DNA of 20,000 nucleotides from Chiloscyllium plagiosum (taxonomy: Eukaryota): NCBI RefSeq assembly GCF_004010195.1, contig NC_057718.1, positions 78,053,135 to 78,073,134 of the forward strand, in the 5' to 3' direction. This document shows positions 2,084 to 20,000 of the stretch, one piece after another; position 1 is the stretch's first letter, and the number at the start of each line of letters is the position of its first letter. The notes below the pieces were generated by a model. The model ran no database searches and had not been told where the DNA came from. It saw nothing but the letters and a program-made list of their open reading frames with translations. The position numbers and the translations under genes are program-made.

Positions 2084-2731
2084 TGCGGTCCTTCTTCAAG
2101 GACCGCAATTTCCCCCCCCTGACGTGGTCGACGATGCCCTCCACCGCATCTCTNNNNNNNNNNNNNNNNNNNNNNNNNNNNNNNNNNNNNNNNNNNNNNN
2201 NNNNNNNNNNNNNNNNNNNNNNNNNNNNNNNNNNNNNNNNNNNNNNNNNNNNNNNNNNNNNNNNNNNNNNNNNNNNNNNNNNNNNNNNNNNNNNNNNNNN
2301 NNNNNNNNNNNNNNNNNNNNNNNNNNNNNNNNNNNNNNNNNNNNNNNNNNNNNNNNNNNNNNNNNNNNNNNNNNNNNNNNNNNNNNNNNNNNNNNNNNNN
2401 NNNNNNNNNNNNNNNNNNNNNNNNNNNNNNNNNNNNNNNNNNNNNNNNNNNNNNNNNNNNNNNNNNNNNNNNNNNNNNNNNNNNNNNNNNNNNNNNNNNN
2501 NNNNNNNNNNNNNNNNNNNNNNNNNNNNNNNNNNNNNNNNNNNNNNNNNNNNNNNNNNNNNNNNNNNNNNNNNNNNNNNNNNNNNNNNNNNNNNNNNNNN
2601 NNNNNNNNNNNNNNNNNNNNNNNNNNNNNNNNNNNNNNNNNNNNNNNNNNNNNNNNNNNTGACCTGCTGCGCTTTTCCAGCAACACATTTCCATCTCTGA
2701 TCTCCAGCATCTGCAGACCTCACTTTCTCCT
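2084..2731 (+). mobile_element. 5'-truncated Penelope-like element inserted in the CR1 RT, with a 12-bp TSD
   Basis: TSD CATGTTCTATAT at 2072-2083 and 2732-2743. The 5' part reads SFFKDRNFP...VVDDALHRIS, recalled as shark Penelope ORF upstream of the GIY-YIG domain. The 3' tail tgacctgctgcgcttttccagca matches the hammerhead-bearing repeat at 16680-16779. Confidence 0.8.
2154..2659. other. Assembly gap (506 N)
   Basis: Run of N inside the inserted element. Confidence 1.
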
Positions 2732-4807: not shown

Positions 4808-4951
4808 GCAACCACATTATTAACGATGGATAAGTATTTGGCAGAAGACATTTCAAATATCAACAATACTTGTTTTAAATTGAATTCATTGCAATTGCAA
4901 GCGCTACTTCAAAGCTACCACTGTGCACAGGATGAGCCCTATATCCCTCAG
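4808..4951 (+). CDS. AFDN: Afadin coding exon A (C-terminal part of DIL region), 144 nt, phase 0/0
   Basis: Acceptor ttttttactattatag|GCA, donor CAG|gtattt. Translates ATTLLTMDKYLAEDISNINNTCFKLNSLQLQALLQSYHCAQDEPYIPQ, matching the recalled vertebrate afadin segment ATTLLTMDKY..DDIPNINSTCFKLNSLQLQALLQNYHCAPDEPFIP. Missed by the ORF track. Confidence 0.96.
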
Positions 4952-5857: not shown

Positions 5858-5878
5858 GTATCTATATTATGGCTTCAG
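5858..5878 (+). other. Candidate 21-nt in-frame microexon (VSILWLQ)
   Basis: Pyrimidine tract ending ttttgttttcccctgtag|, donor CAG|gtaatg. It lies in a phase-0 intron and its length is divisible by 3. Confidence 0.25.
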
Positions 5879-6244
5879 GTAATGTAAACCAGATCTGCCT
5901 ATTAGTGTCTCAAGCTGAAGCATGTGGTTCAAGCTGAAATGCAGAACCACCTCAATAATCCAGACGAGACGAGCAAGGAGTATTTCTCAGGTAACTGAGA
6001 GTTTGGGTAACAGATTGTTCGGATAACAGCACTTTTACGGGACCTTGAGATCTTGTTCGAGGTTGTTCTGTACATGGTATCATTTTCTGAAATGGTTGTT
6101 TAAAATTTTAATAGATTATGTAACCCACACTGTCAGTTGCTTAGCCAATCTGTATCTTTATAATGTGATGCAACATAGCTCTTGTTCCTTCCTTCTATTT
6201 TTATGTATGTATATTGACCAGAAATTGTTGGGGTTTGTTTTAAG

Positions 6245-6443
6245 GAATTAATTGAAAATGTAGTGGCATTAGCAGAGAACACAGCTGATGAACTTGCACG
6301 GAGTGATGGTAGAGAGGTGCAATTGGAAGAGGACCCTGACCTACAGCTACCTTTTCTACTACCTGAAGATGGCTATTCCTGTGATGTTGTTCGGAATATT
6401 CCTAATGGCCTTCAGGAATTCTTAGAACCACTTTGTCAGAGAG
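6245..6443 (+). CDS. AFDN: Afadin coding exon B, 199 nt, phase 0/1
   Basis: Acceptor gtttgttttaag|GAA, donor AGAG|gtaggt. Translates ELIENVVALAENTADELARSDGREVQLEEDPDLQLPFLLPEDGYSCDVVRNIPNGLQEFLEPLCQR(G), near-identical to recalled afadin. Overlaps ORF 6263..6457. Confidence 0.97.
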
Positions 6444-8138: not shown

Positions 8139-8239
8139 GTTTTTGTAGACTAACCAGTCATTCACGATCACCTGGTACATGGACAGTTTATTTTGAGAGT
8201 GCTGACTATGAAAGTAATTTTCCACTTGATACTGAGTTG
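8139..8239 (+). CDS. AFDN: Afadin coding exon C, 101 nt, phase 1/0
   Basis: Acceptor ttctatcctgtag|GT, donor TTG|gtaagt. Translates (G)FCRLTSHSRSPGTWTVYFESADYESNFPLDTEL. Phase is compatible with exon B, and it matches afadin GFCRL..H.RSPGTWTIYFEGADYES. Confidence 0.96.
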
Positions 8240-8809
8240 GTAAGTTGGTAATTTAGAATGTATATGCATTTATTCCCTCCCTCATTGTTTAAAACAAAGT
8301 TCAATACTATCTGGAACAAATGTATTTACATTGCGTTTGTATGGTGTGTGAGCATTGCTTAATTTGTCAATGATTAGTTGACTTTAATGACATAAAGGCT
8401 ACAAGCTTTCATGAAGGTAAATGTTGATAGGTAGGACATGGAGTGATTAAAGAGAGCTGAATTGACCAGGTTTGATTTTGCTAATGCACTTACCATGAAT
8501 CATTAGTAGCATTACTTCTGAATATTCAAAGCATATTCAAGATTATTGGATAATAGATTTTCTAAAGCAGAAAGAAATGCCACCTTTATCTAAATGCTTC
8601 TCTCTGACAAGATTCTTCATTATTTACTCTGATTTTCATTCTTGGTTTCTTTCAGTTACTGGGAATGGATGGCGGTTTTGTTCTGGTGATCATTCATAGT
8701 GTCTGAAAGTAAACCATTTATGTCAGTTTTCCATTTTTAAGACAGGTTTATTTTTATTAGAAACAACTGGAAAATTTCTCAATCCTTTCAAAGAATTTCT
8801 CATCTTCTA

Positions 8810-9117
8810 CAGTGGCTCAGTAGTTAGCACTGCTGCCTCTCAGCGCCAGGGACTCAGGTTTGATTCCAGCCTCGAGCGAGTGTCTGTGTGGAGTTTGCAC
8901 ATTCTCCCCATGTATGGGTTTCCTCCCACAACACAAAGATGTGCAGGTTAGATGAATTGACCATGCTAAATTGCCTGTAGTGTTTAGGGATGTGTAAGTT
9001 AGGGCATTAGTCTGGGGTAAATATAGGACGGGGGGAATGAGTCTGGGTGGGTTAACCTTCAGGTCGTGTAGACTTGGTCGGCTGAATGGCCTGTTTCCAC
9101 ACTGGTGTGATTCTATG
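8810..9117 (+). mobile_element. HE1-like tRNA SINE with a 9-bp TSD
   Basis: A-box tggctcagtag and B-box ggtttgattcc (8857-8867), with the same core and tail as 638-937. TSD CATCTTCTA at 8801-8809 and 9118-9126. Confidence 0.9.
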
Positions 9118-9216
9118 CATCTTCTATCATGTCACCTCGTTACCTCGTTATTGATTGCATGTGAATATATGGTACGGGTATAAATTTTTAAGTGTTGTTT
9201 CCTTTTTTGTCTCCAG

Positions 9217-9294
9217 GCTTCAGTTCATGAAGCAGATTTTGAATTTGACTTTAGTACCCCAGACATTTATAGTGTCCTGGCTTCTGAATTTTAA
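9217..9294 (+). CDS. Candidate alternative last exon of afadin (coding part, 25 aa + stop)
   Basis: Acceptor tgttgtttccttttttgtctccag|G. Phase-0 frame ASVHEADFEFDFSTPDIYSVLASEF followed by TAA TAA. AATAAA at 9293, 9455 and 9468. No transcript evidence is available. Confidence 0.4.
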   Translation, partial: ASVHEADFEFDFSTPDIYSVLASEF

Positions 9295-9454
9295 TAAATG
9301 TGTCTAAGTATCTTATTTAGCTTAATATGCACATCTTTTTAATATATTATGTATCATATTCTCTTTTAGTATTTTAACTTTATTATACCATTTTCTTGCA
9401 TGTAACCTACTGGCAATGCTGTCTTACCTGATGTTTATTAGTTGTCAGAGCCAC

Positions 9455-9500
9455 AATAAAAAGGTTCAATAAAACTTTGGCATTTTTTAATGGTTAGTGT
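9455..9500 (+). terminator. Candidate intronic polyadenylation signal
   Basis: Two AATAAA hexamers (9455-9460, 9468-9473), an upstream TGTA (9401) and a downstream U/GU-rich stretch (cattttttaatggttagtgt). Confidence 0.35.
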
Positions 9501-9571
9501 AGCTGCTTTTCAATTCAGCTGATCAGCTTTTTAAAAATTGAGGGAATGAATCATAACCTAGCTGTGAGCTT

Positions 9572-10651
9572 GTAAGGCAGTAAGACACAGGAGCAGAAAT
9601 TAAGCCATTAGGTCCATCAAGTCTGCTCCAACATTCCATCGTGGCTGATAAGCTTACAGTCCCATTCTCCTGCTTTCTCCCCTTAATAATCAAGAGGCTA
9701 TCTATCTCTGTTTGAAATATATTCAATGACCCTGGCCCTCTGGCTGAATAAGTTTCTCCTCATCTCCATTCTAAAGGGTTTTCCCTTTACTCTAAAAGGC
9801 TGTGCCCTCTGGTCTTAGACTCTCCTGCTAATGGAAACATTTTCGCAATGTCCACTCTGTCCAGACCATTCAGTATTAATTAGATCCCCCTCTCATCTTA
9901 CTAAACTCCATCGAGTGTAGACCCAGAGTCCCTCAAATGTTTCTCATATTCAACCTTTCATTCCTGGGATTATTCTTGTCAACCTGCTCTGAACACACTC
10001 GAGGGCCAGTGAATCCTTCCTGAGGTGTAGGACCCAAAATTGCTCACAATATTGTAAATATGGTCTGACCAGAGCCTTTTAAAGCCTCAGAAGTACATTC
10101 CTGCTTTTATATTCTAGTTCTTTTTGAAATAAATGCCATCATGTATTTGCCTTCCTAACTACCGACTCAACCTGCAAGTTTACCTTTAAGACAATCCTGA
10201 ACTAGGACTGCTAAATCCCTTTACAATTTAGATCTCTAAATTTTCTCCCATTTAGAAAACAGTCTATGCCTCTAATCTTACTACCAAAGTACATGGTCTC
10301 TCACTTTACCACATTGTATATCATCTGCCACTTCTTTGCCCACTCTCCTAACTTGTCTAAACCTTCTGCAGCCTCCCTACTACCTTTCCCTCCACCTACC
10401 TTTTGCATTATCTGCAAACTTAGCCAAGTGCCCTCAGTTCCTTCATCTAGATAATTAATGTATAAAGTGAAAAGCTGTAGTCCCAACATTACCCTTGTGC
10501 AACACCACTAATCATCGGCTGCTGTTCTGAGACAGACCCTTTTATCCCCACTCTCTGCTTTCTGCCAGACAGCCAATCTTCTATCTATGCCTGTACCTTG
10601 CCTCTAACACCATGGGCTCTTATCTTACTCAGCAACCTCCTGTGTGGCACC
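9572..10651 (-). mobile_element. CR1 LINE 3' fragment, antisense, different subfamily
   Basis: Minus-strand frames give MLGLQLFTLYINYLDEGTEG, (K)FADN, LDKLGEWAKKWQMIYNVVKC-like RT sequence and a CR1 tail (tggagcagacttgatggacctaatggc). Internal deletions are present. Confidence 0.9.
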
Positions 10652-11068
10652 AGTTGTTCAGGTGTTATTACTGGTCCCAAAGCTGAAAGCAAAAGGGGAG
10701 CAATTTTGCAGCCAACAAATAACTGCAGAATCTAGCGATGATTAACCATTTCAATGACATTTGAGTACGAATTTAATGAGTGAAATTCCAAGTTAGGTAA
10801 ATGGTTGTTTATTGAGTTGCCAAATTTTTTTTTAAAAACTGAGTTGATAATTTAAAGTACTTTAAATTAGAAAAGTAATATAAGGAAAATTAGTGCAATT
10901 TCATTTTGTCATTAAGAAACAGAATGTACTTCATATTCTCTTTTCACTCCTGTTGTTGATATTGTTGAGTTTTGGATCAGGTATTCTAACTGCTGAATTC
11001 AAACTGTTGGGCGGTCTCTTCATGTCCTGGGTTTGTATTTTTCACCACATTGTTCTTTTTCTGTTAAG

Positions 11069-11155
11069 GCTGAGCCTAATCGTAAAGAACCAGAGATAAT
11101 TACTGTGACACTGAAAAAGCAAAATGGAATGGGCCTAAGCATTGTAGCTGCTAAG
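11069..11155 (+). CDS. AFDN: Afadin coding exon D (start of PDZ domain), 87 nt, phase 0/0
   Basis: Acceptor ttctttttctgttaag|GCT, donor AAG|gtaaga. Translates AEPNRKEPEIITVTLKKQNGMGLSIVAAK, including the afadin PDZ carboxylate-binding loop GMGL. Confidence 0.97.
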
Positions 11156-11224
11156 GTAAGATAATGTTTGCATTTAAGTCCTGTGGGTAATGCTATGACC
11201 AAAGTAAAAGAGGAACCTTCAGAA

Positions 11225-11500
11225 TTTGTGGACAGAATTAAAAGTAGTTCTGATCATTTAAGGTGGAGATGACATTTTTTTTTCTCTGATCGTCATGTCT
11301 TTGGAATGTTCAGAGAGTGGATCCAAAGCCATTGAATATTTTGAATGCAAAGCTAGAAAAATACTTGGCTAACAAAAATATTAAAGGTTATTAAAAAATA
11401 GATCAGATTCTGGAAATGAGGCCACAATTAAATCCACCGTGATATTATTAAATGATGAAGCAGGATTGAGGGGCACAATTGTCTGTTACCCCTAATTCAT
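11225..11500 (+). mobile_element. Old CR1 3' fragment
   Basis: Sequence catttaaggtggagatga...tttttctctga...tctttggaat...cattgaatattttgaatgca...ttaaatgatgaagcaggattgagggg follows the CR1 C-terminus and 3' UTR layout. Confidence 0.6.
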
Positions 11501-17087: not shown

Positions 17088-17153
17088 GGTGCGGGACAGG
17101 ATAAACTAGGAATCTATGTTAAATCTGTGGTGAAAGGAGGAGCTGCAGACTTG
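17088..17153 (+). CDS. AFDN: Afadin coding exon E (PDZ domain), 66 nt, phase 0/0
   Basis: Acceptor ctttcaatgttctcag|GGT, donor TTG|gtaagt. Translates GAGQDKLGIYVKSVVKGGAADL, the direct continuation of the afadin PDZ. Confidence 0.97.
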
Positions 17154-18165: not shown

Positions 18166-18440
18166 AAGAACACAGGTGAGGGTTCTTGTGGTGCAGTGGT
18201 TGTGTGCTTATTTGTCAAGAGTGGGCATTTATTTGGTCTGGAAACCTCTGAGCTATTCAGGTAATGTGCATAATATGAATTGTTAACAGCTACCATTCAT
18301 ATTTGTTCTGCCATTGTTTGTATGCGGTATCCTTTGTAATAATTCCCACCTATTAACATGCTAACGAACATGACATAGGTTCATCCAAAGCATGCCTTTG
18401 TTGTTGACCTTGTTAATATTCAAAATTGTGGGGGGGGATC

Positions 18441-18452
18441 CAAGATGGCGGC
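18441..18452 (+). promoter_or_regulatory. YY1-type site at the L1 5' end
   Basis: CAAGATGGCGGC matches the YY1 consensus AAGATGGCGGC, in the position equivalent to the YY1 site of mammalian L1. Confidence 0.65.
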
Positions 18453-18603
18453 GACCCAGCAAGTCTGAGTCTATAGTGCTCTTCCCAAGACTTTGGTAAA
18501 GTGGGTCACCCACCCCCACCACACTCACCAAATCATTCATAATAGCTGTTTAATTTATTTAGTTGCTTAGTATTACATTTAAACAGTCTAATATTTAGTA
18601 AAA

Positions 18604-19258
18604 ATGACCAAAGGGAAGGGACCCCGCAGCTCTCAGCAAGCAGGAACCCCTCCCCCACCCTCTCCAGCTGAGGCGTCCACAGCCGCCCCGGGGGACTTAC
18701 CTACAGTGACAGGCCTTGTGGAGATGATCTCCAAGCAGGATACGAAGATCGACGCTTTTATCGAGGAGTCCCGAAATCGATCGGACTCATTCTCGGCCGC
18801 GCTGCAGAAGCACGACCGAGACATTAAAGCTTACAGCATTCCTCGAGCAGTGGCTGCCACAGCTTTTATATCTGGAAGCTGGATCAGGCCGGGTAAGGGT
18901 AGAATGGGCCTACCGGGTCGCAATACGCGGGCCCGGCTTGAACCAGCGCCCTCGCCCGGTCCTGTTCCGGCTGCAGAGCTATAGGGAGCGGCAGATACTC
19001 CTAGAACCTTCTAGAAATCTTGGAAGAGACCCCCAAGCTATGATCTATAAAGGATCCAAGATCATGTTATTCCAGGACTTTTCCCCAGCTCTGGTCCGAA
19101 AGAGGAAGGCATTTGACGAGGCAGAGAAGCGTTTAAGGGACTTAAATATTCAATACTCCTTACGCTACCCAGCAACGCTACGCTTTAACCATGAAGGATC
19201 CATGTATAACTTCGGATCGCCAGAAAAGGCTAAGGAATTCTTGGACTCTCTTAGATAA
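18604..19258 (+). pseudogene. L1 ORF1p, disrupted by an internal deletion and frameshift near 18825
   Basis: Frame 1 gives MTKGKG...QKHDRDI (start of coiled coil). Frame 2 from 18827 gives KLTAFLEQWLPQLL...VEWAYRV...RPRPVLFRLQSYRERQILL...IMLFQDFSPALVRKRKAF...YSLRYPATLR...FGSPEKAKEFL*, which is the L1 RRM plus CTD. Confidence 0.85.
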
Positions 19259-20000
19259 ATTGTAAGAGATAATGGATGTTGGTTTGCCTTTCCCTCCGCT
19301 TTGGTTTATATCCCCCCCTTTTTTTTTCTTTTTTCTTACCTTACTGTTTAATACTATCATGGGGGGTGGGAGAGGGATTTGATTATCTCCCCCCCACCTC
19401 CCCCACCCGGGGTTGTTTTTTTAAATTATTTTATGTATATATGTGGGTATGTATGTATATATATATATAGCCGGGGGGTTTGGGGGAGGTGGTTACCTTA
19501 TTCTATTTTACCTCTGTCATTAGGAGCGGGGTTGTTTTTCCCTTGTTATTTTGTATTATTATATTTAATTATTATTTGTTAAGGTTGTAATTTTATAGTT
19601 ATATGTTTATATATGGTATTAACATTACCAAATATATCCAGGTGTTGGTATGGGTGGGGGTAGGGTGCTCACTGTTAACTCTAGCTTTGTATTATATCTG
19701 AATTCTCCTCATTTTATTGAGGAGGGCCTGGGTCAAGGGTGGGGCATTGGTTGGGAGAGGATATGATGGACTTTTGGAGAGGAAGTGACACCCCCTGGTG
19801 TCACTTTCCCCAAGGGGGAAAATCTCCACTTAGATACGTTTTATATTTTTTTTATTTCAAAATAGTTTTTTATTGTATTGTTGTGAGTGTATTAGAGAGG
19901 CTTTATTTTTGTAAATTTTATATGCTCTACACTCGGGATGTTCTGGATAGGGTTTCCACTCCCGAGGGGTCTCAGATTTGCCCAGATGATTATGGTTGAT

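What the first reader, a model, noticed from the sequence alone, without database searches (positions are those of the whole stretch)
9195..9500. Candidate alternative last exon that would replace afadin's PDZ domain with a PDZ-ligand-like tail
Seen: in the intron between exon C (ends phase 0) and the first PDZ exon, in non-repeat sequence between a SINE and a CR1, lies a textbook acceptor (tgttgtttccttttttgtctccag|G). It is followed by an open phase-0 frame ASVHEADFEFDFSTPDIYSVLASEF, tandem TAA TAA stops, an AT-rich UTR-like stretch, TGTA, two AATAAA (9455, 9468) and a U/GU-rich downstream element. Established: afadin is RA-RA-FHA-DIL-PDZ-proline-rich/actin-binding, the well-known short form s-afadin keeps the PDZ, and S/T-x-hydrophobic-COOH is the class I PDZ ligand. 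Inference: using this exon would give an RA-FHA-DIL-only afadin that cannot bind nectins or F-actin but ends in S-E-F-COOH, so it could be a PDZ ligand or a Rap1/Ras-sequestering isoform. It also carries a YxxL motif. I do not recall such an isoform being described, but a 25-codon frame can occur by chance.
Basis: partly seen in the sequence, partly recalled or inferred. Interest (0 to 1): 0.72.

Follow-up and report, generated by a model that had tools for sequence, protein, structure and literature searches.

The report
Likely unused exon in shark afadin
An intron of a shark's afadin cell-junction gene holds a strong splice signal, a 25-codon frame and poly(A) signals, but the one informative RNA sample shows only the normal splice, so it is likely an unused look-alike of a last exon.

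Summary
The described sequence is all there: a strong acceptor before 9217, the in-phase frame ASVHEADFEFDFSTPDIYSVLASEF, TAA TAA, and AATAAA at 9455 and 9468 (plus one at 9293 over the stops). The acceptor outscores 26 of the gene's 30 real acceptors, and the site is the best composite in 227 kb of afadin introns. But looser look-alikes are expected about 7 times per gene, and the codon score is neutral. I found no sign of use. One RNA assembly holds the normal exon C to PDZ splice at depth 34, has nothing on the candidate frame, and has a contig running uncut through both poly(A) signals. All 92 shark- or ray-type afadin records seen go on to the PDZ exon. No relative of the peptide was found among 1.84 billion proteins. 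These negatives are weak: two raw-read runs had no power, contigs drop rare forms, and no second shark genome was available. Verdict: likely a silent or cryptic pseudo-terminal exon (0.7). A real PDZ-less isoform remains possible (about 0.2; selected and functional about 0.08).

The parts
8139..8239 (+). Afadin exon C (DIL-to-PDZ linker), ends in phase 0 at a GT donor
   Evidence: exact spliced match to afadin P0048; its 3' end is joined to the PDZ exon in an RNA contig
8809..9117 (.). Interspersed repeat (SINE-type; family name recalled, not tested)
   Evidence: self-BLAST mask of 340 kb
9193..9216 (+). Polypyrimidine tract and AG of the candidate acceptor, 10.9 bits
9217..9297 (+). 25-codon in-phase frame ASVHEADFEFDFSTPDIYSVLASEF plus TAA TAA; no transcript evidence found
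9298..9500 (+). AT-rich UTR-like stretch with TGTA (9350, 9401, 9498) and AATAAA (9455, 9468); a further AATAAA at 9293 overlaps the stops
   Evidence: crossed uncut by an X1 contig from 9417 to 9795
9564..9585 (+). Three donor-like GT sites (9564, 9572, 9580) that could close the segment as an internal stop-bearing cassette
   Evidence: simple pattern scan only
9573..10644 (.). High-copy repeat (CR1-type; family name recalled, not tested)
   Evidence: mask; depth in the thousands or more in most bins of run X2
11069..11155 (+). First PDZ exon, the acceptor seen used
   Evidence: spliced 3,050-nt RNA contig at depth 34.2

Best explanation
This is likely a pseudo (cryptic) terminal exon: intronic sequence with a strong acceptor, an open frame and poly(A) signals that the spliceosome likely skips, joining exon C directly to the first PDZ exon as one RNA assembly shows. 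Shown: the signals exist and the canonical junction is made. Inferred: the downstream acceptor normally wins, and any use of 9217 would be rare and unselected.
For:: RNA run X1 has a 3,050-nt contig (depth 34.2) joining exon C, PDZ exon 1 and PDZ exon 2; zero depth over 9125-9416; and a depth-4.9 contig from 9417 to 9795 passing both AATAAA uncut; 189 of 196 records with the exon C motif go on to the PDZ exon, including all 92 shark/ray-type records; the other 7 are not of the shark/ray type and have unrelated short tails. Six Chiloscyllium plagiosum isoforms X1-X6 (1,780-1,923 aa) all keep the PDZ; 0 hits among 1.84 billion representatives; 3 other intronic sites match or beat the acceptor and also have a frame of 20+ codons and an AATAAA; codon score -0.7 is reached by 18.5% of 9,524 intronic frames.
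Against: The acceptor beats 26 of 30 real ones, and the candidate is the only one of 16 top sites with a 20+ codon frame and two AATAAA or a class I end; strict expectation 0.007-0.12 per gene. G is skewed to codon position 1 (11 against 2 at position 2), seen in 0.9% of 7,940 intronic frames and 4.9% of 1,560 real windows (post hoc). A site with a similar score (10.8) in this gene is a real annotated cassette exon. The negatives are weak: one run of unknown tissue, contigs drop rare variants and a filter can leave holes; only part of each protein list was shown.
Confidence: 0.7

Rival explanations
1. A real, tissue-restricted or minor alternative last exon. Splicing to 9217 and cleavage after 9455/9468 would give an afadin of about 1,006 aa (RA-RA-FHA-DIL plus the 25-residue tail) without PDZ, proline-rich or actin-binding parts. 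It would likely compete with full-length afadin for Ras/Rap GTPases, as s-afadin does for R-Ras, and might bind PDZ proteins through S-E-F.
For: Strong in-phase acceptor, poly(A) signals and no donor-like pattern before 9564; best composite site in the gene's introns; codon-position G skew. Precedent for a dominant-negative short afadin (PMC4436838, passages) and for widespread intronic polyadenylation (PMC5928244, listing and abstract start).
Against: No coverage in RNA run X1 and an uncut contig across the poly(A) signals; absent from all fetched afadin records; no counterpart in the first 1.2 kb of the same intron in bird-like locus L035 (partial and distant). Class I-like ends occur in 6% of intronic frames.
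Confidence: 0.2
2. A poison cassette. The segment would be included as an internal exon of about 350 nt closed at a donor-like site at 9564-9580; the stop at 9292 would then trigger nonsense-mediated decay and lower afadin levels without making a protein.
For: Three donor-like sites just downstream; decay would explain absence from contigs and annotation (inference).
Against: The donor sites sit at the edge of or inside a repeat, were found by a crude pattern, and are crossed unspliced by the X1 contig; the exon would be long for a cassette.
Confidence: 0.07
3. A decayed partial duplicate of exon C or an inserted fragment of another gene's 3' end.
For: ADFEFDF resembles ADYESNF of exon C; a gapped DNA alignment is matched by 1% of 1,500 intronic segments.
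Against: Protein similarity is not significant (shuffle p 0.19-0.25; 85 of 1,743 intronic frames do as well); no second copy found in the genome by DNA or protein; no poly(A) remnant follows.
Confidence: 0.03

Closest known systems
Cryptic last exons / intronic polyadenylation with a skipped terminal exon (PMC7997972, PMC5928244; listing and abstract start only)
   Same: Acceptor, in-frame stop and poly(A) signal inside an intron, able to cut off C-terminal domains
   Different: Those were shown by RNA data; here use was not seen
s-afadin (PMC4436838, PMC9355967; passages read)
   Same: [quoted passage not shown]
   Different: s-afadin (190 kDa) is described as lacking the actin-binding end; that it keeps the PDZ follows from the domain order and recall. 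This candidate would stop before the PDZ and is unproven
Prematurely polyadenylated MAGI3 (PMC4905742; listing and abstract start only)
   Same: A junctional scaffold truncated at an intronic poly(A) signal
   Different: Shown event in human cancer; no evidence of such a product here
Class I PDZ ligand (S/T-x-hydrophobic-COOH; definition recalled)
   Same: S-E-F fits the pattern
   Different: Only three residues; the three solved afadin/Canoe PDZ ligands all end in valine (PMC8590279); binding untested

Membership tests
Alternative last exon | Strong 3' splice site in phase with the upstream exon | tested here: met
   10.9 bits, above 26 of 30 real acceptors; phase 0
Alternative last exon | In-frame stop followed by a poly(A) signal | tested here: met
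Alternative last exon | Transcripts spliced from exon C into 9217 | tested here: inconclusive
   None in X1 (contigs; canonical junction present); X6 and X7 had no power
Alternative last exon | RNA 3' ends just after the poly(A) signal | tested here: inconclusive
   An X1 contig runs uncut across 9417-9795; contigs cannot show ends
Alternative last exon (selected) | Acceptor, frame and stop conserved in related species | not testable with these tools
   No related genome held; no peptide hits; nothing in a partial bird-like intron
Class I PDZ ligand | C-terminal S/T-x-hydrophobic | tested here: met
   S-E-F; chance rate 6%
Class I PDZ ligand | Binds a PDZ domain | not tested
   No partner to test and no evidence that the peptide is made
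Duplicated exon C | Significant similarity to exon C | tested here: not met
   shuffle p 0.19-0.25

The most novel reading that the evidence does not exclude
Sharks make a selected, PDZ-less afadin (RA-RA-FHA-DIL plus an acidic tail ending S-E-F) through this last exon, switching afadin from a PDZ scaffold into a Ras/Rap-sequestering PDZ ligand in some tissue.
Probability: 0.08. Interest if true: 0.5.

Novelty: not a real feature. Interest (0 to 1): 0.12.

Why it matters
If unused, it does not matter beyond showing how convincing a pseudo-exon can look. If used and conserved, it would add a third class of afadin isoform, uncoupled from nectins and actin but still able to bind Ras-family GTPases and, through the FHA region, Scribble (PMC9355967, passages). 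My searches listed no paper on such an isoform. The mechanism, truncation by an alternative last exon, is itself well known.

Tried and rejected
No RNA holder of the stretch was listed as RNA on record; this is no evidence either way. Raw single-cell runs: X6 laid 7 reads of 12,955,460 read (none on 9125-10073, one on the PDZ exon) and X7 laid 0 of 8,328,510, so neither is a test. Exon C itself was not part of the laid stretch, so the junction was judged from coverage and loose ends at the acceptors; 99 loose ends and 2,445 pieces were not shown. Searches for short afadins: 2 candidates and the best 120 of 1,012 held no shark isoform with the tail; shortened isoforms tend to hide as cluster members, of which only 15 of 46 and 15 of 28 were listed. 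ESM Atlas gave only scores of 0.76 or less. The peptide was too short for the locus search; exon B found 80 loci with only one clearly vertebrate orthologue. Rfam: 0 matches in the intron. Exon duplication was rejected. Earlier scan findings: none. No fold or complex was run, since nothing shows the peptide is made. Two of 32 afadin junctions were not resolved and were left out of the null.

Full report
Setting. The window is part of the afadin gene of a bamboo-shark-type genome: exons B, C and the first PDZ exon match Chiloscyllium afadin P0048, exon C and the PDZ exon at 100%. Using 340 kb of the own genome I resolved 30 of 32 junctions. In the window the exons are 4808-4951, 6245-6443, 8139-8239 (C), 11069-11155 and 17088-17153 (PDZ). 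The intron after exon C is phase 0.

Observation. There is a third AATAAA at 9293 formed by the tandem stops, and three donor-like GT sites at 9564-9580. The segment lies between repeats at 8809-9117 and 9573-10644, was found once in the genome by DNA and by protein, and is matched without differences by a contig of run X2.

Chance. With a matrix built from the gene's 30 acceptors, the candidate scores 10.9 bits, above 26 of 30 real ones scored leave-one-out. 16 of 13,920 intronic AGs in 227,255 bases reach it. Of these 16, 6 open a frame of 20+ codons, 4 also have an AATAAA within 300 bases, and only the candidate has two or a class I end. Multiplying the marginal rates gives 0.12 such sites per gene (0.007 with the end) at the candidate's own values, and 7.3 (0.44) at the median acceptor score with one AATAAA. 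So it is unusual within the gene, but the criteria were drawn around it and the scan reads very many windows. Codon use is neutral: 18.5% of 9,524 intronic frames score as high, and 11% of real afadin windows score lower. A G skew to codon position 1 favours coding (0.9% of intronic frames, 4.9% of real windows) but is post hoc. As a calibration, one of the 18 best-scoring intronic sites listed is an annotated cassette exon (QDIAQYE); I found none of the others in the isoforms I mapped.

RNA. Four runs were laid on 9125-11300. X1 contains spliced mRNA: a 3,050-nt contig at depth 34.2 lies on the first PDZ exon with loose ends matching the end of exon C and the start of the second PDZ exon. X1 has no depth on 9125-9416, which holds the whole candidate frame. 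It does have intronic contigs at depth 5-6, one running from 9417 to 9795 through both AATAAA and the donor-like sites, which fits unspliced precursor or DNA. This leans against abundant use but cannot exclude a minor or tissue-restricted form, because contigs drop rare variants and a filter can leave holes. The raw-read runs X6 and X7 had no power.

Annotation and conservation. Of 335 proteins fetched, 196 carry the exon C motif and 189 continue into the PDZ exon, including all 92 of shark or ray type; the other 7 end in unrelated short tails that look like intron read-through. None of 316 had tail motifs and the 19 added later showed none. Only part of each list was visible. The 36-residue open frame found 0 hits among 1.84 billion representatives, which is weak for a short eukaryotic exon. 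No related genome was held. A bird-like locus has no counterpart in the first 1.2 kb of this intron, which says little about sharks.

Mechanism. Most likely (0.7) the site is a pseudo-terminal exon that is skipped; the canonical junction is shown, the skipping of this site in all tissues is inferred. If it is used (0.2), the product would be about 1,006 aa (981 of P0048 plus 25), keeping RA, FHA and DIL and losing PDZ and actin binding. By analogy with s-afadin, which blocks l-afadin binding to R-Ras (PMC4436838, passages), it would likely act as a dominant negative; the FHA region that binds Scribble would be kept (PMC9355967, passages). In flies the PDZ and actin-binding domains are described as modulatory and the RA domains as critical (PMC8590279, abstract start and passages), so such a form could keep some activity. 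The S-E-F and YxxL motifs are too short to count as evidence. A poison cassette (0.07) and a decayed duplicate (0.03) are the remaining rivals.

Literature. Searches listed no paper on a PDZ-less afadin isoform or an afadin alternative last exon; I read passages of three papers and only listings of the rest, and the library lacks most subscription journals. Supplementary tables of intronic polyadenylation atlases were not read and could list an AFDN event.

Verdict. Observation confirmed; isoform unproven and more likely absent or negligible. Interest 0.12.

Noticed in passing
G000:C9, 13,469 bases upstream of window position 1 (acceptor in L020): A 7-codon cassette exon (QDIAQYE) present in several shark afadin isoforms and absent from P0048; it scores 10.8 bits, close to the candidate.
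   Followed up: partly
Proteins P0051, P0055, P0328, P0330, P0326; L035:5090-5110: Read-through tails after exon C begin A-S in four tetrapod-type records and V-S in one; bird-like L035 has a GT donor giving V-S-I. A-S would fit a GC donor at this intron in some lineages (inferred, not checked). The likeness to the candidate's A-S-V start appears coincidental.
   Followed up: no
G000:C9, afadin junction at P0048 residue 575 (L020): The best-fitting donor is GC (CAG|GCAAGG), a likely GC-AG intron.
   Followed up: no
window 5858-5890: Another strong acceptor (11.0 bits) in the intron before exon B, after a long pyrimidine-rich tract, opening only 9 codons.
   Followed up: no
window 11104: T reads as A in all three runs that cover it (X1, X2, X6): a third-codon-position difference from the assembly in the first PDZ exon.
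   Followed up: no
window 2154-2659: Assembly gap of about 500 N inside a repeat.
   Followed up: no
window 18430-20000: 5' part of a LINE-like element with an ORF1-like frame, GC-richer than its surroundings (class recalled).
   Followed up: no
Proteins P0133, P0300, P0301, P0303, P0308, P0309: Crustacean afadin-like models of about 1,000 aa end after the first PDZ exon with unrelated tails; likely split gene models, since 1,860-aa versions exist in the same cluster.
   Followed up: no
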